From Candidatus Omnitrophota bacterium (GTDB lineage Bacteria > Omnitrophota > Gorgyraeia > Gygaellales > JAQTUX01): a stretch of DNA of 64,000 nt. The DNA lies in NCBI GenBank assembly GCA_028707125.1, contig JAQTUX010000001.1, forward strand, positions 977,493-1,041,492, given 5' to 3'. The notes below the pieces were generated by a model. That model was not told where the DNA came from and ran no database searches. It saw only the letters and a list, made by a program, of their open reading frames with translations. This document shows, one piece after another, positions 22,186 through 30,421 of this stretch; the stretch's first letter is position 1, and each line of letters opens with the position of its first letter. A program made the translations under genes and the position numbers.

Positions 22186-23137
22186 GACCTCCTGTGACGA
22201 GACCTCCGTTGCCGTCGTAAGGAGCGGTAAGGACGTTCTTTCAAACATAGTTTCTTCCAGTTTACCTCTTCATAAGAGATACGGCGGCGTTGTCCCGGAG
22301 ATAGCCAGCCGCCATCATCTTGAGGCGATCGCCCCGGTTTTCAAGGCGGCTTTGGATACGGCCGGTTGCGATCTGGGCCAAATAGGCGCTGTATGCGCTA
22401 CTTTCGGCCCGGGGCTGGCAGGTTCGCTTTTGGTCGGAACTTCTTTCGCGCGCGCGCTGGCGTTTTGCCGCGGGGTTCCATTAGTAAAGGTAGATCACGT
22501 TCATTCGCATATATATGCCGCCTGTTTAGGCAGGAAATTACCTATGGTTTTTCCTTTTATTGGTTTCGTGGCTTCGGGAGGGCACACGGATATCTTTTTT
22601 GTGCGGGATTTCAATAGAATGGAATTGATGGGTTCCACGCTGGACGACGCCGTGGGAGAATCGTTTGATAAGGTTGGCAGGATCCTGGGGCTGGGTTATC
22701 CCGGCGGGCCGGAGATCGAAAAACTTGCCTCGCGAGGCGATCCCGGTAAAATAAGATTTTCCTGCGCGAATATGAAAGGGACGCTCAACTTCAGCTTCAG
22801 CGGCATAAAAACCGCGGTATTGTATTACACAAAGGGAAGGAAGATCAGCCGGGCGCTTAAAGCGGATATCTGCGCCTCTTTTCAGAAGGCGGTGGCAGGC
22901 GTGCTTATAGATAAGGTGTTATCGGCCTGCAGGGCGAAAAGCGCCGGCCGTTTGTTTGTGGGGGGCGGGGTGATGTCAAACAGTTATTTACGCCATAAAC
23001 TAAGCGGGGCTTGCCATAGTAACGGCATAGAAATGTTCATGCCGGATAAGGAATATTGTCTTGATAACGCGGCAATGGCCGCGGGTCTGGGGTTTCAACT
23101 CTTAAAATCGCGAGGTGGTCATGTTAAGCCAGGGTGA
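22166..23137 (+). CDS. tsaD: tRNA N6-adenosine threonylcarbamoyltransferase TsaD
   Basis: MLTLGIETSCDETSVAVV...HHLEA... is the Kae1/TsaD family. Confidence 0.9.
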   Translation: MLTLGIETSCDETSVAVVRSGKDVLSNIVSSSLPLHKRYGGVVPEIASRHHLEAIAPVFKAALDTAGCDLGQIGAVCATFGPGLAGSLLVGTSFARALAFCRGVPLVKVDHVHSHIYAACLGRKLPMVFPFIGFVASGGHTDIFFVRDFNRMELMGSTLDDAVGESFDKVGRILGLGYPGGPEIEKLASRGDPGKIRFSCANMKGTLNFSFSGIKTAVLYYTKGRKISRALKADICASFQKAVAGVLIDKVLSACRAKSAGRLFVGGGVMSNSYLRHKLSGACHSNGIEMFMPDKEYCLDNAAMAAGLGFQLLKSRGGHVKPG

Positions 23138-23552
23138 TATTATGTTGAGGTTGGTATTGGCCGTGCTGTTCAGCGGGGCCATAGGGTTTGAAAGGCAGAT
23201 ACGGCACAGGGGCGCCGGGCTTCGCACGCATATATTAGTGTGCCTGGGCTCAACCCTGATAATGTTGACATCAATATACGTTTTTGATATATATAGAGGT
23301 GAGGCGGCGATAGATCCCGCGAGGATCGCCGCGGGCGTAGTCACAGGCATAGGTTTTCTCTGCGCCGGAACCATCATAAGATCCGGAGAGGCGATACGGG
23401 GATTGACTACGGCGACGAGCCTGTGGCTGGTTGCCGCGGTCGGCCTGGCCATCGGCATAGGATTTTACAGCGCCGCGTTCATGGCCACTGTTTTGGCTTT
23501 AGCCGTCCTTATGATGCTTCGCCGTTTTGAAGACAGGGTTTTTAGCAGATAA
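23121..23552 (+). CDS. MgtC/SapB family membrane protein
   Basis: LRLVLAVLFSGAIGFERQ...GLRTHILV...GIGFLCAG...GLTTAASLW is the MgtC signature. Confidence 0.7.
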   Translation: MLSQGDIMLRLVLAVLFSGAIGFERQIRHRGAGLRTHILVCLGSTLIMLTSIYVFDIYRGEAAIDPARIAAGVVTGIGFLCAGTIIRSGEAIRGLTTATSLWLVAAVGLAIGIGFYSAAFMATVLALAVLMMLRRFEDRVFSR

Positions 23553-23574
23553 ACCATTGAAGGAGGTGGTAAAG

Positions 23575-24075
23575 ATGCCCCTCAGAAGAAAAGCGTTGGA
23601 GGAAAAGGTTCTTGACGTAGATGCCAGTATGCAGGGCGCGCTGATCTTTAAGGATTCGGTTAACCTGCGCATCAACGGAAAATTTGAAGGCACGCTTGAA
23701 ACCAGAGGCAGCCTTACGTTAGGGCAGACCTCATATGTTAACGCCGCCATAACGGGAGACGAGATCGTCGTTGCCGGCCGCGTTAACGGTAAGATCACCG
23801 CCAGGGTAAAGCTTACCCTGCTTTCCAGCGCGATAGTGCAGGGCGAGATCATGCCTTCCAAGTTGGTGATAAACGACGGGGCGCTGTTTGAGGGCACCTG
23901 CCGTATGCTGCAGGATTATTTTAACGCGGAGGAGCTTGCCCGTTACCTGGAGGTTGACATTAATTCCGTTATGGAATGGGCGGATTCCGGAAAGGTCCCG
24001 GGCAATAAGGAGTCCGAAGGGTGGAAGTTTGAGCGCAAGGCAGTTGATGAGTGGATAGCTTCAGGGAGGATCTAG
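23575..24075 (+). CDS. Bactofilin (DUF583 beta-helix) fused to a C-terminal excisionase-family HTH (HTH_17) domain
   Basis: Strong RBS GAAGGAGGTG. Residues ~20-120 show bactofilin-like repeats (VNLRINGKFEGTLETRGSLTLGQTSYVNAAITGDEIVVAGRVNGKITARVKLTLLSSAIVQGEI). The C-terminus EELARYLEVDINSVMEWADSGKVPGNK...WKFERKAVDEWI resembles excisionase/MerR-type HTH. Confidence 0.6.
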   Translation: MPLRRKALEEKVLDVDASMQGALIFKDSVNLRINGKFEGTLETRGSLTLGQTSYVNAAITGDEIVVAGRVNGKITARVKLTLLSSAIVQGEIMPSKLVINDGALFEGTCRMLQDYFNAEELARYLEVDINSVMEWADSGKVPGNKESEGWKFERKAVDEWIASGRI

Positions 24076-24080
24076 ATCAG

Positions 24081-24383
24081 ATGTCGGAGAAATTGTTGAC
24101 CATCAGGGAGGTGTCGCACCTTCTGGAGATCTCGGAAAAAGAAGTGGTGGACCTGGCTGAGCAGGGCAAGATACCGGCTTACAAAGTCGGCGGTTTGTAC
24201 CTGCGTTTTAAGAAAGATCAGATAGATGAGATCAGGCACAGGTTCGTGCCTGACAGCGCGGCCGCGAGGATGAAGTATACGCCTTTTGAGCGCGCCCGCG
24301 ACTTTCTGGTGTATAACGATTTCTATATTGTCTCAGCCACGGTCATATTGGCCATAGTTTATATTATTTTTAAAGGGATTTAA
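24081..24383 (+). CDS. Excisionase-family HTH (HTH_17) protein with a C-terminal transmembrane helix
   Basis: MSEKLLTIREVSHLLEISEKEVVDLAEQGKIPAYKVGGLYLRFKKDQIDE (TIGR01764-like), then a hydrophobic tail FYIVSATVILAIVYIIF. Confidence 0.6.
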   Translation: MSEKLLTIREVSHLLEISEKEVVDLAEQGKIPAYKVGGLYLRFKKDQIDEIRHRFVPDSAAARMKYTPFERARDFLVYNDFYIVSATVILAIVYIIFKGI

Positions 24384-24388
24384 TTTAA

Positions 24389-25054
24389 GTGAAGTCAGAT
24401 AAGCCGGGCTTCCGCGATATAGGGTTTGCCAAGGTTGACATAGACAGGCACAGGCGAAGAGGTTTTCCGGAGGTGATTTTCTGCCAGGGCAAGACAGCCG
24501 GGCAGATAAAGGCGATAGCCGAAGAGATCCTGCGCGATAAACAGCCGCTGCTGCTTACCAGGATCGCCGAAGATACCTTTGTTTATCTTAAGAGGCAATT
24601 CCCCAAACTCAATTATAACAAAGAAGCAAGGGCCGCTTATTATATAGCTGTAAAAAAGAAGAAGCGCGGGCCTGCCGTAATAGTGACCGCGGGCACATCT
24701 GATATCCCTGTCGCCGAAGAGGCGCGCGTTACGCTTGAACTCAGCGGTGTCAAGGCCAAGAGGATTTATGACTGCGGAGTAGCAGGGCTGCACAGGATAA
24801 GACCCTATATAGGGTCTTTGCGCCGGGCAAAGGTCATAATAGTCGTCGCGGGCATGGAAGGGGCGTTGGCGAGCATAGTTTCAGGGATGGTTTCCTGTCC
24901 GGTCATCGCCGTGCCTACCAGCGTGGGTTATGGTTCAAGTTTTAAAGGGCTCTCCGCGTTGCTTACAATGCTTAACAGCTGCTCTCCCGGAGTCGCGGTG
25001 ATGAATATTGATAACGGTTTCGGCGCCGGATACTTCGCCGGCCTTATAGCATGA
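24389..25054 (+). CDS. larB: LarB-like (PurE-related) nickel-pincer nucleotide cofactor biosynthesis carboxylase
   Basis: GFAKVDIDRHRRRGFPEVIF..GKT...VTAGTSDIPVAEEA...VVAGMEGALASIVSGMVSCPVIAVPTSVGYGSSFKGLSALLTMLNSC...NIDNGFGAG matches LarB family motifs throughout. GTG start. Confidence 0.7.
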   Translation: MKSDKPGFRDIGFAKVDIDRHRRRGFPEVIFCQGKTAGQIKAIAEEILRDKQPLLLTRIAEDTFVYLKRQFPKLNYNKEARAAYYIAVKKKKRGPAVIVTAGTSDIPVAEEARVTLELSGVKAKRIYDCGVAGLHRIRPYIGSLRRAKVIIVVAGMEGALASIVSGMVSCPVIAVPTSVGYGSSFKGLSALLTMLNSCSPGVAVMNIDNGFGAGYFAGLIA

Positions 25055-25458
25055 ATAAAGCCACGCTGAGAGAAGCGGTAAGATTCCACGGCCACCTTGG
25101 GCCGTGGCTTGTTTTGGGGCTTTTGATGGGGCCGTACGCCTTGAAGAAAATACGCGCCGGGAAATATTTCAAATTGCGCGTTAAGGTGTGGGGGGCCGGC
25201 GAAAGACCGAAATCCTGCTTAATTGACGGGCTTCAGCTTTCTACGGGCGCAACTTACGGCAAGGGGAACATAGAGAAGCTGAAAGGGCCCAGGGTCAGGG
25301 TCTTATTCCATAATCTGGAAAACAATAAAAAGGCCCTGATATATCTGAAGAAGGGCCTAGCCGGCGCGCTGGAAGATTTAAAAAGCCACAGGGATTCCGA
25401 AAGATTCGCGATGAAATTATGCGAGATCAAACCATCAATGATTTTTACAGATAATTAA
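25051..25458 (+). CDS. FmdE-domain-like protein (FHGH motif)
   Basis: 135 aa reading TLREAVRFHGHLGPWLVLG... resembles the N-terminal FmdE/FwdE domain (PF02663) but lacks the full CxxC set. Confidence 0.45.
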   Translation: MNKATLREAVRFHGHLGPWLVLGLLMGPYALKKIRAGKYFKLRVKVWGAGERPKSCLIDGLQLSTGATYGKGNIEKLKGPRVRVLFHNLENNKKALIYLKKGLAGALEDLKSHRDSERFAMKLCEIKPSMIFTDN

Positions 25459-25469
25459 GAAGGAGCGTA

Positions 25470-26807
25470 ATGGCATTATCAGGTTTAGACATCTACAAAT
25501 TATTGCCTAAGACGAACTGCAGGAAATGCGGCTTTGCTACCTGCCTTGCCTTTGCCATGCAGTTGGCGAAGAAGGCGGTTACCCTGGATAAATGCCCGGA
25601 CCTTACGCGGGAGGCAAAGGATGCTCTTCAGGCCCAGGCAATGCCGCCTATCCGGCTTATCGCCATAGGAGGAGAGGGTAATAAGCTTGAAGTAGGCAAT
25701 GAAACGGTGATGTTCCGCCATGAGGAGAAATTTCACCGCCCCGCAGGCATCGGTTTTATCATAGACGACGACCTTAGCGAGGCGGCTATTGAAGACAGGA
25801 TCAGGGCAGCGGGAAATTTGCGCTTTGAGCGTATCGGAGAGGCGCTGAATTTGAACATTATCGCCGTAAGGCAGAAGAAAAACAGGAGCGCTTTTGTTAA
25901 TGCCGTAAAAAAGGTGTGCTCTTCTTCGGATCTTCCTTTGGCGCTGATGAGCAATGATGAAGCGGCCCTGCGGGATGCCCTGTCTTTGCTTAAGGATAAG
26001 AGGCCGCTTATATTCAAGGCGGACAAAGAAAACATTGAGCAACTCTCATCGCTTGCCGCGGAATTCAAGGCGCCTCTGGTTGTGAGCGCGCAAAACCCTG
26101 AAGAGTTATCCCTGCTGGCTAAACAGGCCGCTTCCAAGGGCGTCAATGACATCGTGCTGTATCCCGACAGCCGGACAGTAAAGAAAAGATTGTGGGACCT
26201 GACCCAGATAAGGAGGCAGGCGCTGAAAAAGAACAACAGGGCCCTTGGCTATCCCACGCTGACTGTCGTTGATGAGGAGGACGCGTTCCTTGAAGCGATC
26301 ACGGCGTCTGTTTTCATATTAAAGTATTCCAGCATAGTCCTGCTAGGTAATTTTCATTCATGGGAGATACTGGCTCTGCTTACCTTAAGACAGAATATCT
26401 TCACCGACCCCCAGAAGCCGCTGCAGGTGGCGCCCAAACTTTATGAGATCGGACAGGTTGACGCCGATTCTCCGCTCATCGTTACCACGAATTTTTCGCT
26501 GACCTATTATACCGTGCTTACTGAGGTAGAGGCCAGCAAGGTGCCTTCCTATATACTTAGCGTGGATACCGAAGGGATGTCCGTGCTCACTGCCTGGGCA
26601 GCGGAGAAATTTACTTCGGAAAGCATTGCCAAGGCGTTGAATGATGACTCCGTTAAAAGCAAGGCTTCCCGTAAGGAGGTCATACTTCCGGGTTACGTCG
26701 CGGTATTGAGCGGGAAACTGGAAGAGGACTCAGGATGGAAGGTGCGCGTAGGGCCTAAAGAGGCGTCAGGGCTTCCCGCATTTTTGAAGGCGTTAAGGAA
26801 TCCATAA
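25470..26807 (+). CDS. acsC: Corrinoid iron-sulfur protein large subunit (acetyl-CoA decarbonylase/synthase gamma; AcsC/CdhE)
   Basis: N-terminal [4Fe-4S] domain MALSGLDIYKLLPKTNCRKCGFATCLAFAMQLAKKAVTLDKCPDL, a TIM-barrel middle and a C-terminal B12-binding region; 445 aa, as for AcsC. Confidence 0.85.
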   Translation: MALSGLDIYKLLPKTNCRKCGFATCLAFAMQLAKKAVTLDKCPDLTREAKDALQAQAMPPIRLIAIGGEGNKLEVGNETVMFRHEEKFHRPAGIGFIIDDDLSEAAIEDRIRAAGNLRFERIGEALNLNIIAVRQKKNRSAFVNAVKKVCSSSDLPLALMSNDEAALRDALSLLKDKRPLIFKADKENIEQLSSLAAEFKAPLVVSAQNPEELSLLAKQAASKGVNDIVLYPDSRTVKKRLWDLTQIRRQALKKNNRALGYPTLTVVDEEDAFLEAITASVFILKYSSIVLLGNFHSWEILALLTLRQNIFTDPQKPLQVAPKLYEIGQVDADSPLIVTTNFSLTYYTVLTEVEASKVPSYILSVDTEGMSVLTAWAAEKFTSESIAKALNDDSVKSKASRKEVILPGYVAVLSGKLEEDSGWKVRVGPKEASGLPAFLKALRNP

Positions 26808-26809
26808 TA

Positions 26810-28714
26810 ATGAACAAAGATACTTATACGATCACATTTTTTCATCCCGGCGCCACGAAGATAGAGGTGCATAAAGGCAGGGATATTTTATCTGCCGCGC
26901 TGGCAGCGGGCATATACATTAACTCAAGCTGCGCCGGAGACGGCGTATGCGGCCGCTGCAAGGTGATCATTAAAAAAGGCGAAATAACCACGGAGCCGTC
27001 CGGACGCGTCTCCATGGAAGAGAGGCATAAAGGATATGTGCTTGCCTGTCAGACAACCGTGCATAGCGACGTAGAAGTAGAAGTGCCTGCCGGATCAATG
27101 CTGGACCTGGACAGCGTTTCTGAAGAAGACGAAAGATTCTTGCGCCTGAAAGGGCTGTACAGCCAGGCAGAGGATGTGGATAAGGCGGAAGGCGTGATCA
27201 AGGAGAAACTATTCGCGCATAGCCCGCTGGCAACCAAGGTTTATCTTAAGATGCCCGCGCCGACGTTTAATGACACGGCCAGCGATTTAGAGAGATTATA
27301 CAGAGAACTCAGAAAAAAGAAAGACATACCTGTATTACAGAGCGGCCTGACCAACATTAAGCGCCTGGGTATGCTGTTAAGGGAGAGCGGCTTTAAGGTT
27401 ACAGCGCTTTTAGGGGAGAGGAACGGGACCGTAGAGGTCATTTCTCTGGAGTCAGGCGATACGTCCAGGGATAATTACGGCGTTGCCTTTGATATCGGCA
27501 CTACCACTATTACCGGCCAGCTGGTGGATCTTAATACCAGGAAAATATTGGGCACAAAGGGGACCTACAATAAACAGGCCGCTTTCGGCAGCGATGTCAT
27601 TACGCGCATTATTTACGCGGCAGAGGAAGGCGGACTGGAAAAGCTGCATCACGCGGTGATCGATAATATCAATTCCATAATCCAGGAATTGGTAAAAGAA
27701 GGCGGCGTTGAGTTGAGCGATGTAAATGCCGTGATGTGCGCGGGCAATACCACTATGATACATCTGCTCCTGCGGGTCGATCCCGCGTTTATCAGGAAGG
27801 AGCCCTATGTCGCCACTGCCAATTTTATGCCGGTGATCAGGGCGGCAGAGGCAGGGATAAAGATAAATCCCAGGGGCCTGCTTGCCTCTATGCCCGGGGT
27901 AACTACGTATGTGGGCGGCGATATAACAGCCGGCGTGCTGGCAAGCGGGATCAACAGGTCCGACAAACTAAGTATGCTGATAGATATAGGCACAAACGGC
28001 GAGATAGCCCTGGGGAATAAGGACTGGCTGGTTTCTTGCGCCGCTTCCGCCGGCCCGGCCTTTGAGGGCAGCGGAGTCAAGTACGGCATGAGAGCGGCCA
28101 AAGGCGCGATCCAACGAGTGGATATATCGGCATCGGGAAAGGCCAGGGTTGAAACCATAGGGAATGCCAGGCCCAGAGGCATATGCGGTTCGGGTTATAT
28201 TGACTGCCTGGCGGAATTGTTTAAGAAGGGCCTGATAGACAAAAACGGCAAATTCCGCGATGACAGTGAGGAATTTATCCTGGTTCCCCGGAAGGAAGCC
28301 GATACGGAATACGATATCACAATTACGGAAGCGGACATTGAGAATCTCAAGCGTTCCAAAGGGGCGATCTACGCCGCGGCAACGGTATTGCTGAAGAAAA
28401 TGGACCTGGATTTCAACGATATTGAACGCTTTTATATCGCCGGAGGTTTCGGCACATATCTGGATATAGATAAGGCCGTGGCGATCGGCATGCTTCCCGA
28501 TTTAAATAGAAAGAAATTTTCATTCATAGGCAATAGTTCTCTCGTAGGCGCGCGGGAGGGGCTGCTTTCTTACGAAGCTAAAACAGAGGCGGAAGAGATC
28601 GCGAGGAAAATGACCTATATTGAATTAAGCATAGAGCCGGCATATATGGATGAATATGTGGCGGCTTTGTTCTTTCCGCATACGGACTTGAACAGGTTCC
28701 CCAGCGTAAAGTAA
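26810..28714 (+). CDS. Reductive activator of CoFeSP (RACo): [2Fe-2S] ferredoxin plus ASKHA ATPase
   Basis: N-terminal plant-type ferredoxin (SSCAGDGVCGRCKV...LACQT), a linker, and a C-terminal ASKHA domain (FDIGTTTITGQLVD...); about 630 aa, matching RACo architecture. Confidence 0.75.
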   Translation: MNKDTYTITFFHPGATKIEVHKGRDILSAALAAGIYINSSCAGDGVCGRCKVIIKKGEITTEPSGRVSMEERHKGYVLACQTTVHSDVEVEVPAGSMLDLDSVSEEDERFLRLKGLYSQAEDVDKAEGVIKEKLFAHSPLATKVYLKMPAPTFNDTASDLERLYRELRKKKDIPVLQSGLTNIKRLGMLLRESGFKVTALLGERNGTVEVISLESGDTSRDNYGVAFDIGTTTITGQLVDLNTRKILGTKGTYNKQAAFGSDVITRIIYAAEEGGLEKLHHAVIDNINSIIQELVKEGGVELSDVNAVMCAGNTTMIHLLLRVDPAFIRKEPYVATANFMPVIRAAEAGIKINPRGLLASMPGVTTYVGGDITAGVLASGINRSDKLSMLIDIGTNGEIALGNKDWLVSCAASAGPAFEGSGVKYGMRAAKGAIQRVDISASGKARVETIGNARPRGICGSGYIDCLAELFKKGLIDKNGKFRDDSEEFILVPRKEADTEYDITITEADIENLKRSKGAIYAAATVLLKKMDLDFNDIERFYIAGGFGTYLDIDKAVAIGMLPDLNRKKFSFIGNSSLVGAREGLLSYEAKTEAEEIARKMTYIELSIEPAYMDEYVAALFFPHTDLNRFPSVK

Positions 28715-28718
28715 GGAT

Positions 28719-29468
28719 ATGGGTTATATAATCGCAGTTGCGGGCAAGGGCGGAACAGGCAAGACCACGATAGCGTCGCTGCTGGTCCGGCTCCTTAAGG
28801 ACGCGGGCAAAACTTCCATTATCGCTATTGACGCCGACCCGAATTCCAATTTAGGCGATGCCCTGGGCGTTGAAGTAAAGGAGAGTATCGGCAGCATCCT
28901 GGACGATGTGGCAAAAGACCCGCGCCAGATCCCGGCGGGCACTACAAAAGACAGGTTTTTAGAATACAGGATCCAGGATTCCGTTGTTGAGGCGGATGGC
29001 TTTGACCTGCTTAGCATGGGCAGGCCTGAAGGCCCCGGCTGTTACTGTTTCGTGAATAATCTGCTGCGCGCGATGATCGCGCGGCTGGCGTCGGCTTATA
29101 AGTACGTGATCATAGATAATGAGGCGGGGTTTGAGCATTTGTCGCGGCGCACAATGCGCAGCGCCGACGTGCTTCTCATAGTTTCCGACCCATCTTCTGC
29201 CGGATTACGCGCCGCAGCAAGGATAGATAAACTATCGCGGGAATTGGATATCGCCATAAAAAGAAGGGTGCTTGTGATAAACCGCGTTAGCGGCTCAACA
29301 GCGGATACCGGCATTATACAGAAGTCAGGCATTGAGATGCTTGGCAGCATAGCCGATGATAAGGCCGTAAACGACATATCCGTCAGCGGCGGCTCGGCCT
29401 TTTCGTTGAGCGGCGCGTCGCCGGCATACCGGCAATTGAAAAAGATCGGAGAGAAAATATGGGCTTAG
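28719..29468 (+). CDS. cooC: CooC/AcsF-type Ni-insertion ATPase (CO dehydrogenase/ACS maturation factor)
   Basis: MinD/ParA-type Walker A (AVAGKGGTGKTT) plus the CooC-specific GPGCYC (CxC) metal-binding motif. Confidence 0.8.
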   Translation: MGYIIAVAGKGGTGKTTIASLLVRLLKDAGKTSIIAIDADPNSNLGDALGVEVKESIGSILDDVAKDPRQIPAGTTKDRFLEYRIQDSVVEADGFDLLSMGRPEGPGCYCFVNNLLRAMIARLASAYKYVIIDNEAGFEHLSRRTMRSADVLLIVSDPSSAGLRAAARIDKLSRELDIAIKRRVLVINRVSGSTADTGIIQKSGIEMLGSIADDKAVNDISVSGGSAFSLSGASPAYRQLKKIGEKIWA

Positions 29469-30421
29469 AGCTGGTCAAGGAAAAATGGGCGTCCGCGATC
29501 AACGTGGTGCAGATAGGCGCCGCGAAAGAAGACGGCGGTACGCGTACGCATACTGTGAAGGCAGGCGGCGAGAGCACTCTTGCCTTCCTGGAGGAAGAGG
29601 GAGGAATTCCCCACAGGCCGCTGATCGCCTATGAGGTATGGGATATAGAACCAGGTGACTGGCCTGACGAACTGAAAAACGCCTATGGCAAGGTTTTAAA
29701 GAGCCCTCTTGATTGGGCGCTTAAATGCGTAAATGAATTCAAGGCAGGCCTGCTTTGCCTGCGCCTGCAGGGCGCGCATCCGGATTCAGGTGACAGGACT
29801 GCCGATGCCTCGGTAAAGTTAGTCAAGGAATTGCTGAAGGCGACAGGGGTCCCTCTTATAATACTGGGCTGCGGCGATGATGCTAAGGATAATCAAGTGC
29901 TTGTGTCCTGCTCTCAGGCAGCCGCCGGAGAAAGATGCCTCATAGGCGACGCTGTCCAGGAGAATTATAAGACGCTTGCCGCGGCGGTGATCGCTGACGG
30001 CCACTCCATTATCGCCGAGTCGCCCATTGATATCAATATCGCCAAACAGCTCAATATCCTCATATCGGACATGGGTGTCGCGCTTGATAAGATCGTGATA
30101 AATCCCACGATAGGGTCTTTGGGTTATGGCCTTGAATACGCCTATTCTATTATGGAAAGGGCGCGTTTGGCCGCTCTCTCGGGAGATAAAATGATGCAGA
30201 TGCCCTTTATATGTTTTGTGGGTTATGAGGCCTGGCGGGCAAAAGAGGCAAAGTCAACCCTCAAGGAAACGCCTGAATGGGGCGATGAAAAAATGCGCGC
30301 TCCTTTATGGGAGGCGTTGACCGCCAGCGCGCTCCTGCAGGCAGGGGCGGATATCCTGGTGATGCGCCACCCTATGTCTATAAAATATATCGAGCAGCAT
30401 ATAGACGAATTAATGAAATGA
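29459..30421 (+). CDS. acsD: Corrinoid iron-sulfur protein small subunit (acetyl-CoA decarbonylase/synthase delta; AcsD/CdhD)
   Basis: 320-aa TIM-barrel protein (…VPLIILGCGDDAKDNQVL...) with the size and placement of AcsD beside acsC/acsE. Confidence 0.75.
   Translation: MGLELVKEKWASAINVVQIGAAKEDGGTRTHTVKAGGESTLAFLEEEGGIPHRPLIAYEVWDIEPGDWPDELKNAYGKVLKSPLDWALKCVNEFKAGLLCLRLQGAHPDSGDRTADASVKLVKELLKATGVPLIILGCGDDAKDNQVLVSCSQAAAGERCLIGDAVQENYKTLAAAVIADGHSIIAESPIDINIAKQLNILISDMGVALDKIVINPTIGSLGYGLEYAYSIMERARLAALSGDKMMQMPFICFVGYEAWRAKEAKSTLKETPEWGDEKMRAPLWEALTASALLQAGADILVMRHPMSIKYIEQHIDELMK

What the first reader, a model, noticed from the sequence alone, without database searches (positions are those of the whole stretch)
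23575..24383. Bactofilin fused to an excisionase-type HTH, followed by a second HTH protein carrying a TM anchor
ORF 23575-24075 has a bactofilin-like beta-helical core (repeated hydrophobic ladder VNLRINGKFEGTL…VAGRVNGKITARVKLTLLSSAIVQGEI) joined to a C-terminal HTH_17/excisionase-type DNA-binding domain (ELARYLEVDINSVMEWADSGKVPG…). The next ORF (24081-24383) is a stand-alone copy of the same HTH type (LTIREVSHLLEISEKEVVDLAEQGKIPAYKVGG) with a C-terminal transmembrane helix. A polymer-forming cytoskeletal domain covalently linked to a DNA-binding domain, next to a membrane-tethered paralogue of that domain, would be a simple DNA-to-filament-to-membrane tethering device (compare ParB/PadC-bactofilin systems, where the link is non-covalent). 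The HTH_17 family also contains known ligand-binding non-DNA members, so an alternative function is possible. I am not aware of this fusion being described.
Basis: inference. Interest (0 to 1): 0.6.

Follow-up and report, generated by a model that had tools for sequence, protein, structure and literature searches.

The report
Bactofilin fused to winged-helix domain
A filament-forming (bactofilin) protein with a built-in winged-helix domain, always encoded next to a membrane-anchored copy of that domain, is a real, widespread and unstudied gene pair of Omnitrophota bacteria. Its winged helices lack the residues such domains use to read DNA, so it more likely couples filament to membrane than DNA to membrane.

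Summary
ORF1 (23575-24075, 166 aa) scores above Pfam thresholds for Bactofilin (81 bits) and HTH_17 (33.6 bits). ORF2 (24081-24383, 100 aa) is an HTH_17 domain plus a C-terminal transmembrane helix. This is not a one-off: more than 1,500 database proteins match ORF1, and all 120 listed carry both domains, with every organism-named source Omnitrophota. In 80/80 genome loci, and in 3 divergent lineages with different neighbours, the fusion is followed directly by the HTH-TM partner. ORF1 keeps a membrane-targeting-like N-terminus (family consensus MAFKKK) and the hydrophobic residue that BacA and TtBac need for polymerisation. Both winged helices fold like BldC, RacA and Xis. However, the base-reading Arg of BldC (R30) and RacA (R19) is Glu/Asp in 77/81 ORF1 and 64/81 ORF2 orthologues, and helix alpha2 is net acidic (+3 in the DNA-bound references). 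I therefore favour a membrane-associated bactofilin scaffold whose built-in winged helix docks to its tail-anchored paralogue (confidence 0.4). A RacA/RocS-like DNA tether comes second (0.3). I found no paper describing the fusion. It is a new variant of a known kind, of moderate interest.

The parts
23115..23552 (+). Short MgtC-family membrane protein (145 aa). It is the conserved upstream neighbour, so context and a possible third component.
   Evidence: Pfam MgtC 138.5 bits. It lies directly upstream of the fusion in 78/80 loci, and the other 2 are cut by the contig end. It is also upstream in divergent L086 but absent in L082 and L087.
23560..23566 (+). Shine-Dalgarno sequence AAGGAGG for ORF1
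   Evidence: Read directly from the sequence, 8 nt before the ATG at 23575.
23575..24075 (+). ORF1: bactofilin-winged-helix fusion protein, 166 aa
   Evidence: An identical protein, P0001, is on a 1.26-Mb NCBI Omnitrophica MAG contig.
23575..23607 (+). N-terminal basic/hydrophobic tail (residues 1-11, MPLRRKALEEK; family consensus MAFKKK), resembling the bactofilin membrane-targeting sequence
   Evidence: Orthologue N-termini compared with the global MTS consensus MFSKKKK and BacA MFSKQAKS (PMC12448750). pLDDT is below 50, so the tail is predicted disordered.
23608..23901 (+). Bactofilin beta-helical core (residues 12-109), including F105 at the C-terminal polymerisation interface
   Evidence: Pfam 81 bits. 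phmmer hits BacA 2n3d at E 4e-8 and TtBac 6ria, and F105 aligns with BacA F130 and TtBac F105. Position 105 is F51/L27/I3 of 81. Foldseek TM is 0.84-0.87.
23917..24066 (+). C-terminal MerR/excisionase-type winged helix (residues 115-164). Helix alpha2 covers residues 129-138, with E134 at the position of the base-reading Arg.
   Evidence: Pfam HTH_17 33.6 bits. AF2 topology is beta-alpha-alpha-beta-beta-alpha. Best matches are BldC, RacA and Xis. Position 134 is E51/D26 of 81.
24064..24069 (+). Shine-Dalgarno-like GGGAGG for ORF2, inside the 3' end of ORF1
   Evidence: Read from the sequence, 11 nt before the ATG at 24081. The ORF1-ORF2 gap is 5 nt here, with a median of about 11 nt in 80 loci.
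24081..24383 (+). ORF2: tail-anchored winged-helix protein, 100 aa
24090..24245 (+). Cytoplasmic winged helix of ORF2 (residues 4-55). Helix alpha2 covers residues 19-27, with D24 at the position of the base-reading Arg.
   Evidence: HTH_17 40.5 bits and TIGR01764 39.6 bits. Foldseek to BldC gives TM 0.81-0.86 and rmsd 1.0-1.5 A. Position 24 is D44/E20 of 81.
24291..24329 (+). Conserved juxtamembrane motif (residues 71-83, RARDFLVYNDFYI; family DFxYFNDFY). It is the best-conserved segment of ORF2.
   Evidence: D74, F75, D80, F81 and Y82 are invariant in alignment A2. Mean pairwise identity is 67 %, against 18 % for the preceding linker.
24318..24374 (+). C-terminal transmembrane helix (residues 80-98), followed by only 2 residues
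   Evidence: Hydropathy and an AF2 helix at 80-98 with pLDDT about 90.

Best explanation
This is a conserved two-gene cytoskeletal module of Omnitrophota. [quoted passage not shown] This is inferred from its MTS-like N-terminus and its retained hydrophobic polymerisation residue. In place of the usual disordered C-terminal tail, every subunit carries a folded MerR/excisionase-type winged helix on a linker of about 5 residues. ORF2 is co-transcribed and tail-anchored in the membrane. It holds a paralogous winged helix in the cytoplasm on a variable linker of about 25 residues, followed by an invariant acidic/aromatic juxtamembrane motif. Both winged helices have replaced the base-reading Arg with Asp/Glu and carry an acidic alpha2. 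I therefore infer that they act as protein-protein docking modules, not sequence-reading DNA binders. The ORF1 domain would pair with the ORF2 domain, perhaps head-to-tail as BldC, Xis and RdfS domains pack. Alternatively the ORF2 domain could bind the bactofilin core, as BacR binds BacE/F. Either way the polymer would be fixed to an integral-membrane receptor. Shown here: the domain identities, the folds, the paralogy, the TM anchor, the gene pairing and the loss of canonical DNA-contact residues. Inferred: polymerisation, membrane binding, the ORF1-ORF2 contact and the cellular role. The likely role is envelope or division-site organisation in very small cells.
For: Domain and fold identity. 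Pairing: ORF2 lies directly downstream in 80/80 Omnitrophota loci, 43-68 % identical. It is also directly downstream in three divergent lineages whose other neighbours differ: L082 (SPOR and TPR/PDZ upstream), L086, and L087 (SIS/CTP-transferase downstream). Pairing is therefore not just inherited synteny. The gaps are short and the ORF2 RBS sits inside ORF1. The two HTHs are paralogues. Loss of DNA-reading features: BldC R30 and RacA R19 make the base contacts, and R30A and R19A abolish binding (PMC5859096; PMC4914108). The aligned position is E/D in 77/81 ORF1 and 64/81 ORF2 orthologues. Net charge of alpha2 is -1 in 63/81 ORF1 and -2 or -3 in 54/81 ORF2 orthologues, against +3 for BldC, RacA and Pukovnik Xis. 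The ORF1 HTH has pI 4.5 and median net charge -3. The alpha2 surface is nevertheless conserved, with HTH mean identity 54-56 %, close to the bactofilin core at 59 %. It is therefore under selection for some other contact. Precedents: BacR, an HTH protein encoded next to bactofilin genes, binds BacE/F and this binding blocks its DNA binding (PMC13649987). The membrane protein PbpC binds BacA and can substitute for its MTS (PMC12448750).
Against: No interaction was tested, and I could not run a multimer prediction. Nearly all characterised HTH_17/MerR-type winged helices bind DNA. The closest structural matches (BldC, RacA, Xis) are all DNA-bound. Basic residues persist in the wings and at the start of alpha1 (ORF1 K145, K151, R154; ORF2 K4, R9, K35, R42, K44). 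Weak non-specific backbone binding, amplified by the polymer, therefore cannot be excluded. ORF2-like partners in some divergent lineages have a basic alpha2 (L086 +5 with Arg at the key position; L087 +4). This suggests an ancestral DNA-binding partner. ORF1 has its own MTS-like tail, so a separate membrane anchor is not obviously needed. A 50-residue domain 5 residues from the C-terminal polymerisation interface might hinder filament formation.
Confidence: 0.4

Rival explanations
1. DNA-filament-membrane tether. The bactofilin polymer, bound to the membrane by its N-terminal tail, displays an array of winged helices that bind chromosomal DNA weakly or non-specifically. Avidity from the polymer makes the binding effective. 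ORF2 adds a second membrane-fixed DNA contact. The module would anchor or organise the nucleoid, like RacA-DivIVA, RocS or BacP-PadC-ParB, but with the link made covalent.
For: The three functional modules of RocS are a MerR-type wHTH, an oligomerisation domain and a membrane-binding element that needs multivalency. All three have counterparts in ORF1 (PMC11500499). RacA is among the top sequence and fold matches for both HTHs. The RacA DNA-binding domain also has a low net charge and relies on many phosphate contacts. Wing and alpha1-start basic residues are conserved. Divergent partners have a basic alpha2. A second clade of the fusion sits beside a ParA/MinD-type ATPase. Bactofilins already organise ParABS in Myxococcus (PMC5703909).
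Against: The base-reading Arg is Glu/Asp and alpha2 is net acidic in both proteins across the main clade. The ORF1 HTH has pI 4.5. No ParB, PadC or parS-like element lies next to the pair. No conserved DNA site was identified.
Confidence: 0.3
2. Regulatory partner switch of the BacR type. ORF2, and perhaps the ORF1 domain, is a transcription factor held inactive at the membrane or on the polymer. It would be released, for example by proteolysis of the tail anchor or by filament disassembly, to regulate genes in response to envelope state.
For: BacR (YhbD) is an HTH protein encoded with bactofilins. It is recruited to the membrane by them and switches to the nucleoid on cell-wall stress (PMC13649987). 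ORF2 combines an HTH with a membrane anchor. An S41 C-terminal processing protease and a polysaccharide deacetylase lie in the same conserved gene string.
Against: The acidic alpha2 argues against DNA binding here too. ORF2 is not a DUF4004 protein, since no such Pfam hit appears at E<=1. The periplasmic tail of 0-4 residues gives no sensor or cleavage domain. The surrounding synteny is conserved as a whole and so carries little functional information.
Confidence: 0.12
3. The bactofilin domain no longer forms filaments. It would serve only as a dimerisation or oligomerisation domain for a small winged-helix protein, because the HTH caps the C-terminal interface.
For: The linker between the last beta-rung and the HTH is only about 5 residues in 68/81 orthologues. 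Invariant M111 could pack on the helix end.
Against: The hydrophobic interface residue (F105; F/L/I in 81/81) and the whole core are conserved at 59 % mean identity. Thirteen orthologues tolerate 5-15 extra linker residues, so the HTH is not rigidly docked.
Confidence: 0.08
4. Excisionase or recombination directionality factor pair of a mobile element.
For: There are only family-name hits: TIGR01764 'excise' for ORF2, and Foldseek matches to Pukovnik Xis and RdfS.
Against: There is no integrase or other mobile-element gene nearby. The pair sits in a housekeeping string (GatB, CtpA, Polysacc_deac_2, TsaD, MgtC, pair, LarB, CdhD, RACo) that is conserved across the phylum.
Confidence: 0.01

Closest known systems
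Canonical bactofilins (C. crescentus BacA, T. thermophilus TtBac)
   Same: They share the beta-helical DUF583 core, the short basic/hydrophobic N-terminal tail and the hydrophobic residue at the C-terminal polymerisation interface.
   Different: Canonical bactofilins have short, disordered, poorly conserved C-terminal tails (PMC12448750). Here the tail is a folded, conserved winged helix.
BacR (YhbD, DUF4004) with BacE/BacF of Bacillus subtilis
   Same: An HTH protein is encoded in one operon with bactofilins, binds them physically and is held at the membrane. Bactofilin binding competes with DNA binding (PMC13649987).
   Different: BacR is a separate, soluble 28-kDa DUF4004 protein with Arg before the Trp of its HTH (…LYRWKR). 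Here one HTH is fused to the bactofilin and the other is tail-anchored. Both are HTH_17 with Asp/Glu at that position.
BacNOP-PadC-ParB/ParA scaffold of Myxococcus xanthus
   Same: A bactofilin polymer is linked through its C-terminal region to DNA-segregation proteins (PMC5703909; PMC12448750).
   Different: That link is non-covalent and uses the ParB-like adaptor PadC. No ParB, PadC or ParA lies beside the pair in this window.
RacA-DivIVA (B. subtilis), RocS (S. pneumoniae) and Par of pSK1
   Same: Each combines a MerR-type winged helix, an oligomerisation domain and a membrane or pole anchor. RacA is a top fold and sequence match.
   Different: Those proteins oligomerise through a coiled coil rather than a bactofilin. 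Their Lys and Arg base contacts are strictly conserved, whereas here they are lost.
BldC, Xis and RdfS-type small winged-helix proteins
   Same: BldC is the best structural match (TM 0.73-0.86), and these domains tend to pack head-to-tail into oligomers.
   Different: They are free-standing basic proteins that assemble on DNA. Here the domains are acidic and attached to a polymer or to the membrane.
RodZ-MreB and PbpC-BacA
   Same: A bitopic membrane protein uses a cytoplasmic HTH (RodZ; my own knowledge, not tested here) or a cytoplasmic tail (PbpC) to bind a cytoskeletal polymer and help hold it at the membrane.
   Different: RodZ has an XRE-type HTH, a central TM and a periplasmic domain. 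ORF2 is an HTH_17 protein with a tail anchor and no periplasmic part.

Membership tests
Bactofilin (PF04519 / DUF583) | Right-handed beta-helical bactofilin domain | tested here: met
   Pfam scores 81.1 bits against a cut-off of 27.9. phmmer hits BacA 2n3d at E 4e-8. The AF2 model matches BacA at TM 0.84 and TtBac 6rib at 0.87.
Bactofilin (PF04519 / DUF583) | Conserved hydrophobic residue at the C-terminal polymerisation interface (BacA F130, TtBac F105) | tested here: met
   ORF1 F105 aligns with both residues. The position is F51/L27/I3 in 81 orthologues.
Bactofilin (PF04519 / DUF583) | N-terminal membrane-targeting sequence (consensus MFSKKKK) | tested here: inconclusive
   The family consensus is MAFKKK and this window has MPLRRK, against the published consensus. 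The resemblance is good but no membrane-binding assay was possible.
Bactofilin (PF04519 / DUF583) | Nucleotide-independent polymer formation | not testable with these tools
   This needs EM or sedimentation of purified protein.
HTH_17 / excisionase-family winged helix (PF12728, TIGR01764) | Profile match above the curated threshold | tested here: met
   For PF12728, ORF1 scores 33.6 and ORF2 40.5 bits (cut-off 27). For TIGR01764, ORF2 scores 39.6 bits (cut-off 28.8) but ORF1 only 20.1, below the cut-off.
HTH_17 / excisionase-family winged helix (PF12728, TIGR01764) | beta-alpha-alpha-beta-beta-alpha MerR/Xis-type fold | tested here: met
   AF2 secondary structure gives this topology. Foldseek matches BldC, RacA, Pukovnik Xis and RdfS.
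HTH_17 / excisionase-family winged helix (PF12728, TIGR01764) | Basic or polar recognition helix with Arg or Lys base contacts (BldC K26/R30, RacA K15/R19) | tested here: not met
   The R30/R19-equivalent position is E/D in 77/81 ORF1 and 64/81 ORF2 orthologues. Net alpha2 charge is -1 and -2 to -3, against +3 in the references.
Excisionase / recombination directionality factor | Association with an integrase on a mobile element | tested here: not met
   No recombinase lies in the neighbourhood. The housekeeping synteny is conserved in 80 loci.
RacA / RocS / Par-type chromosome-membrane tethers | MerR-type wHTH that binds DNA through conserved Lys and Arg | tested here: not met
   The fold is shared, but the Arg is replaced by an acidic residue in both proteins. 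DNA binding itself was not testable.
RacA / RocS / Par-type chromosome-membrane tethers | Coiled-coil oligomerisation domain plus membrane or pole anchoring element | tested here: inconclusive
   A bactofilin core replaces the coiled coil. An MTS-like tail (ORF1) and a TM helix (ORF2) supply the anchoring. The arrangement is analogous, not homologous.
BacR (DUF4004) bactofilin regulators | DUF4004 domain | tested here: not met
   Neither ORF gives a DUF4004 hit at E<=1 in Pfam.
BacR (DUF4004) bactofilin regulators | HTH protein encoded next to, and binding, a bactofilin | tested here: inconclusive
   Adjacency is met in 83/83 loci. Binding was not testable.
BacP-PadC-ParB scaffold | ParB-like adaptor (PadC) and ParABS genes associated with the bactofilin | tested here: not met
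   None lies among the genes from 18.6 to 30.4 kb of the window or in the ±4 kb of the 80 loci. The rest of the genome was not examined.

The most novel reading that the evidence does not exclude
Omnitrophota, a phylum of ultra-small and often host-dependent cells, could use a nucleotide-independent chromosome- or organelle-anchoring apparatus. In it a bactofilin polymer carries its own nucleic-acid or cargo-binding winged helix on every subunit, and a tail-anchored paralogue fixes the assembly to the membrane. This would be a covalent, ParB/PadC-free counterpart of the Myxococcus bactofilin-ParABS scaffold. It could have a sister version wired to a volactin-type actin and a ParA-like ATPase. 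Equally novel would be proof that a MerR/Xis-type winged-helix pair has been converted wholesale into a protein-protein connector between cytoskeleton and membrane.
Probability: 0.3. Interest if true: 0.7.

Novelty: new variant of a known kind. Interest (0 to 1): 0.5.

Why it matters
Bactofilins are widespread scaffolds, but how they recruit clients is known for only a few cases, and always through disordered tails or the core domain. Here the client or adaptor domain is built into the polymer subunit and has a dedicated membrane-anchored paralogue. The pair is conserved across a phylum that has almost no experimental cell biology. The architecture is small (166 + 100 aa) and should be expressible in E. 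coli. It also makes clear predictions: polymerisation through F105, membrane binding through residues 2-8, ORF1-ORF2 docking, and DNA binding either present or absent. It therefore offers a tractable test of two questions. One is how bactofilin scaffolds are coupled to membranes or DNA. The other is whether MerR/Xis-type winged helices can be repurposed for protein-protein contacts. It would also give a first handle on cell organisation in Omnitrophota.

Tried and rejected
1. Mobile-element or excisionase reading: rejected, because there is no integrase and the housekeeping synteny is conserved.
2. Weak NCBIfam hits to MamR (19 bits, cut-off 100), MADS1 (38-43 bits, cut-off 80) and BldC subfamily (15-19 bits, cut-off 77): all far below cut-off and treated only as generic HTH_17 similarity.
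3. Promoter and terminator scan of 18-29 kb: 18 promoter-like sites against 10.2±3.2 expected and 13 terminator-like sites against 12.6 expected, with none placed informatively. The operon structure rests on gene spacing only.
4. Other bactofilin or related HTH copies in the window: none found with family HMMs on the six-frame translation.
5. Foldseek against AFDB50, to look for the fusion in other phyla: the library was not available.
6. A linker-joined ORF1+ORF2 AlphaFold run: not attempted.
7. Taxonomy of the most divergent fusions: the listing of cluster members gave no organism names. A third homologue search placed the P0307 clade in Omnitrophota through one named MAG. I found no fusion attributed to another phylum, apart from MAG records labelled 'uncultured Planctomycetales/Planctomycetia', Candidatus Makaraimicrobium/Tantalella or just 'bacterium' that share the Omnitrophota synteny. 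Absence elsewhere is not shown.
8. MgtC as an obligatory third component: not supported, as it is absent upstream in L082 and L087.
9. Literature: no paper in the library combines bactofilin with Omnitrophota or with excisionase. By their titles and abstracts, the 21 papers holding bactofilin and helix-turn-helix and the 12 holding bactofilin, domain architecture and DNA-binding do not describe this fusion.
Full report
**Observation**

- ORF1 is 23575-24075 (+), 166 aa. A strong Shine-Dalgarno sequence (AAGGAGG, 23560-23566) lies 8 nt before the ATG.
- ORF2 is 24081-24383 (+), 100 aa. It starts 5 nt after the ORF1 stop, and its GGGAGG lies inside the end of ORF1.
- Orthologue N-termini support these ATG starts rather than the longer TTG and GTG alternatives.

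Pfam places both ORF1 domains above threshold: Bactofilin at residues 12-109 (81.1 bits, cut-off 27.9) and HTH_17 at residues 115-164 (33.6 bits, cut-off 27). ORF2 matches HTH_17 at residues 5-50 (40.5 bits). NCBIfam adds TIGR01764 'excise' for ORF2 (39.6 bits, cut-off 28.8). Its other hits (MADS1, BldC subfamily, MamR) are all far below cut-off.

Sequence comparison with solved structures finds C. crescentus BacA (2n3d, E 4e-8) and T. thermophilus bactofilin (6ria) for the ORF1 core.

AlphaFold2 on a 41-sequence alignment (mean pLDDT 79) gives these elements for ORF1:

- a disordered tail at residues 1-11;
- a beta-helix at residues 12-109;
- after about 5 residues, a beta-alpha-alpha-beta-beta-alpha winged helix at residues 115-162.

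Foldseek matches the core to BacA (TM 0.84) and TtBac 6rib (0.87). It matches the C-terminal part to BldC, RacA, Pukovnik Xis, RdfS, small-terminase HTHs and CbpM.

The ORF2 model (pLDDT 80) has a winged helix at residues 4-55, short helices, and a long C-terminal helix at residues 80-98. Its best fold matches are again BldC (TM 0.81-0.86, rmsd 1.0-1.5 A), Xis and RacA.

The transmembrane call is sound. In 80/80 orthologues the most hydrophobic 19-residue window lies within 0-4 residues of the C-terminus. The median Kyte-Doolittle mean is 2.55, against 1.09 for ORF1. ORF2 is therefore a tail-anchored protein. The two HTH domains are paralogues (HHalign probability 97.7 %, E 1.8e-12).

**How common it is**

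ORF1 has 1,507 relatives at E<=1e-3 among 90 % identity clusters.

- The best 120 are all 166-170 aa, 64-81 % identical (one is identical), and carry both Pfam domains.
- Every one of them whose source gives an organism name is from Candidatus Omnitrophica/Omnitrophota.
- Automatic names are 'polymer-forming cytoskeletal protein', 'CcmA' or 'excisionase family DNA binding protein'.
- An identical protein lies on a 1.26-Mb NCBI MAG contig, so the window comes from an Omnitrophota genome.

ORF2 has 155 relatives of 85-115 aa, all but one carrying PF12728. One is from the complete genome of Candidatus Velamenicoccus archaeovorus.

An exhaustive HMMER search of 1.84 billion 50 % identity representatives gave 9,152 hits. 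Most are plain bactofilins. Roughly two dozen of the listed clusters match over nearly the full length. Five divergent ones that I tested carry both domains.

**Gene context**

A scan of one genome per species found 112 loci, of which 80 were kept. Most are labelled Omnitrophota/Omnitrophica. The rest are MAG records labelled 'uncultured Planctomycetales/Planctomycetia', Candidatus Makaraimicrobium, Candidatus Tantalella or simply 'bacterium'. All share the same synteny.

tblastn with the window's proteins shows the following:

- ORF2 lies directly downstream of the fusion in 80/80 loci.
- A short MgtC-family membrane protein lies directly upstream in 78/80. The other two loci are cut by the contig end.
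- The wider order is GatB, S41 protease (CtpA), Polysacc_deac_2, TsaD, MgtC, fusion, HTH-TM, LarB, (FmdE-like), CdhD, RACo.

Because the whole string is conserved, adjacency to MgtC or LarB says little about function. Three divergent relatives are more informative, because their surroundings differ:

| Relative | Identity to ORF1 | Locus | Neighbours |
|---|---|---|---|
| P0269 | 37 % | L082 | SPOR-domain and TPR/PDZ proteins upstream |
| P0258 | 42 % | L087 | TPR/PDZ-like upstream, SIS/CTP-transferase downstream |
| P0263 | 36 % | L086 | MgtC upstream, LarB downstream |

All three keep an HTH_17 protein with a C-terminal TM directly downstream. The fusion and its partner are therefore a functional pair. 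MgtC is not obligatory.

**Features of the pair**

ORF1:

- The N-terminal consensus is M-A-F-K-K-K, with M-[AGS]-[FLI]-[KR]-x-[KR]-[KR] in most orthologues and MPLRRK in this window.
- This resembles the global bactofilin membrane-targeting consensus MFSKKKK and BacA's MFSKQAKS, where F2 and K4/K7 are critical (PMC12448750).
- F105 aligns with BacA F130 and TtBac F105, whose replacement by Arg blocks polymerisation. The position is F/L/I in 81/81 orthologues.
- The core-to-HTH linker is about 5 residues in 68/81 orthologues and 5-15 residues longer in the other 13. The HTH is therefore close to the C-terminal interface but not rigidly fixed.

ORF2:

- The HTH (mean pairwise identity 56 %) is followed by a poorly conserved linker (18 %).
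- Next comes a juxtamembrane motif, DFxYFNDFY (67 %), with D74, F75, D80, F81 and Y82 invariant in alignment A2. It is better conserved than the TM helix itself (37 %).

**Do the winged helices bind DNA?**

The best sequence and fold relatives, BldC and RacA, are DNA-bound structures.

- In BldC, K26 and R30 on alpha2 read bases, T27, T29 and K33 contact phosphates, and R30A abolishes binding (PMC5859096).
- In RacA, the equivalent K15 and R19 are completely conserved. R19A abolishes measurable binding and K15A weakens it to a Kd of about 50 µM (PMC4914108).
- The profile alignment maps BldC D24-K36 (DPKTVTRWAKAGK) onto ORF1 D128-K140 (DINSVMEWADSGK).

| Reference position | ORF1 equivalent (81 orthologues) | ORF2 equivalent (81 orthologues) |
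|---|---|---|
| BldC R30 / RacA R19 | E134: E51, D26 | D24: D44, E20 |
| BldC K33 | N, S or D | E or D in 66 |

The net charge of the 13-residue alpha2 segment is -1 in 63/81 ORF1 orthologues and -2 or -3 in 54/81 ORF2 orthologues. It is +3 in BldC, RacA and Pukovnik Xis. The ORF1 HTH has pI 4.5 and median net charge -3. The ORF2 HTH has pI 6.7.

The alpha2 surface is nevertheless conserved, so it is used for something. Canonical major-groove reading is very unlikely for ORF1 and unlikely for ORF2 in the main clade.

Three caveats apply:

- Basic residues persist in the wings and near the start of alpha1.
- RacA's DNA-binding domain also has low net charge.
- Some divergent partners have a basic alpha2 (L086 +5 with Arg at the key position; L087 +4).

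Weak non-specific binding, or an ancestral DNA-binding partner, therefore cannot be excluded.

**Mechanism**

My preferred reading (confidence 0.4) is a membrane-associated bactofilin scaffold whose subunits each carry a winged-helix docking module. That module would pair with the tail-anchored paralogue and so couple the polymer to an integral-membrane receptor.

Three precedents support this:

- BacR (YhbD) is an HTH protein co-encoded with B. subtilis bactofilins. It binds them, is held at the membrane by them, and loses DNA binding when bound (PMC13649987).
- PbpC is a bitopic client that binds BacA near the C-terminal interface and can replace its MTS (PMC12448750).
- BldC-type domains pack head-to-tail. 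The Trp on alpha2 packs against the Gly-rich wing of the next subunit. ORF1 keeps that Trp (W135, 77/81) and ORF2 keeps the Gly-Gly wing (G38 invariant).

The contact itself, the polymerisation, the membrane binding and the cellular role are inferences.

It draws strength from the close architectural parallel with RocS, RacA and Par, which combine a MerR-type wHTH, an oligomerisation domain and a membrane or pole anchor. It also draws on the Myxococcus bactofilin-PadC-ParB scaffold.

The remaining rivals are a BacR-like regulatory switch (0.12), a non-filamentous oligomerisation role (0.08) and an excisionase (0.01). The excisionase reading is effectively refuted by the chromosomal context.

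**Comparison with known systems, and novelty**

The protein is a bactofilin by every testable criterion, and both HTHs are HTH_17 members by profile and fold. They fail the functional hallmark of DNA-reading members, the basic alpha2.

The pair is not a member of the DUF4004/BacR, PadC/ParB, RacA/RocS or RodZ families. It resembles them in logic only.

I found no paper on the fusion. No paper combines bactofilin with Omnitrophota or with excisionase. By their titles and abstracts, none of the papers retrieved on bactofilin plus HTH or domain architecture describes it. Databases already hold over a thousand auto-annotated copies.

I rate it a new variant of a known kind, with interest 0.5. It is a clean, experimentally tractable module in a phylum without cell biology, but its parts are familiar and its function is unproven.

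**Side observations**

- A second, divergent clade of the fusion (27 % identity) includes one member named as an Omnitrophica WOR_2 MAG. It lacks the HTH-TM partner.
- That clade sits after a volactin-family actin homologue (PF25216, 307 bits), a ParA/MinD-type ATPase with a C-terminal CBM48/AMPK glycogen-binding module, and two unknown proteins. One contig has a gas-vesicle gene nearby.
- Nearly all of the 69 ORFs of at least 150 aa in the 64-kb window are on the + strand. The minus-strand ones all overlap a longer + strand ORF.

Noticed in passing
L081 1-5850, L085, L090 1-7731, L091, L088 (related loci, not in the window): A second, divergent clade of bactofilin+HTH_17 fusions (27 % identity; member P0402 is named Omnitrophica WOR_2 bacterium RIFCSPLOWO2_12_FULL_51_8) lacks the HTH-TM partner. 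It sits in a cytoskeleton/positioning-type cluster. The cluster has a Volactin-family actin homologue (PF25216, 307 bits), a 209-aa unknown, and a ParA/MinD-type ATPase with a C-terminal CBM48/AMPK1_CBM module. These are followed by two unknown proteins of about 217 aa, the fusion, and then an MS-channel-like protein and a PAS histidine kinase. A GvpA gene lies about 5 kb away in L088. Volactin was described in haloarchaea, so a bacterial copy in this context deserves its own look.
   Followed up: partly
window 1-64000: Nearly all of the 69 ORFs of at least 150 aa lie on the + strand, and the minus-strand ones all overlap a longer + strand ORF. They are tightly packed or overlapping, so gene orientation across the whole window is extremely co-directional.
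   Followed up: no
window 23115-23552: A short MgtC-family protein (145 aa, membrane domain only) overlaps the end of tsaD. It lies directly upstream of the fusion in 78/80 loci, often with overlapping stop and start codons. It is absent in two divergent lineages, so its link to the pair is unresolved.
   Followed up: partly
window 24389-30421: Directly downstream lie LarB (nickel-pincer cofactor synthesis, 284 bits), an FmdE-like protein and CdhD with an Fe-S domain. These are followed by RACo (reductive activator of corrinoid Fe-S protein), a CbiA/MinD-type ATPase and a second CdhD-like gene. This is part of a Wood-Ljungdahl/CODH-ACS-type cluster, conserved next to the pair in many Omnitrophota.
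   Followed up: partly
L086 1447-1764, L087 1456-1761, L072 (partner genes in divergent lineages): In divergent lineages the tail-anchored partner has a basic 'recognition helix' (SQRKLERLVKKGK, +5, with Arg at the base-reading position; TEKNLKSLIKKQK, +4). In the main clade it is acidic (-2 to -4). This suggests a shift from a DNA-binding to a non-DNA-binding partner during Omnitrophota evolution.
   Followed up: partly
window 24291-24329 (ORF2 residues 71-83): The invariant acidic/aromatic juxtamembrane motif DFxYFNDFY is the best-conserved part of ORF2. It is complementary in charge to the basic/aromatic N-terminal tail (MAFKKK) of the bactofilin. A direct tail-motif contact at the membrane surface is conceivable but untested.
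   Followed up: no
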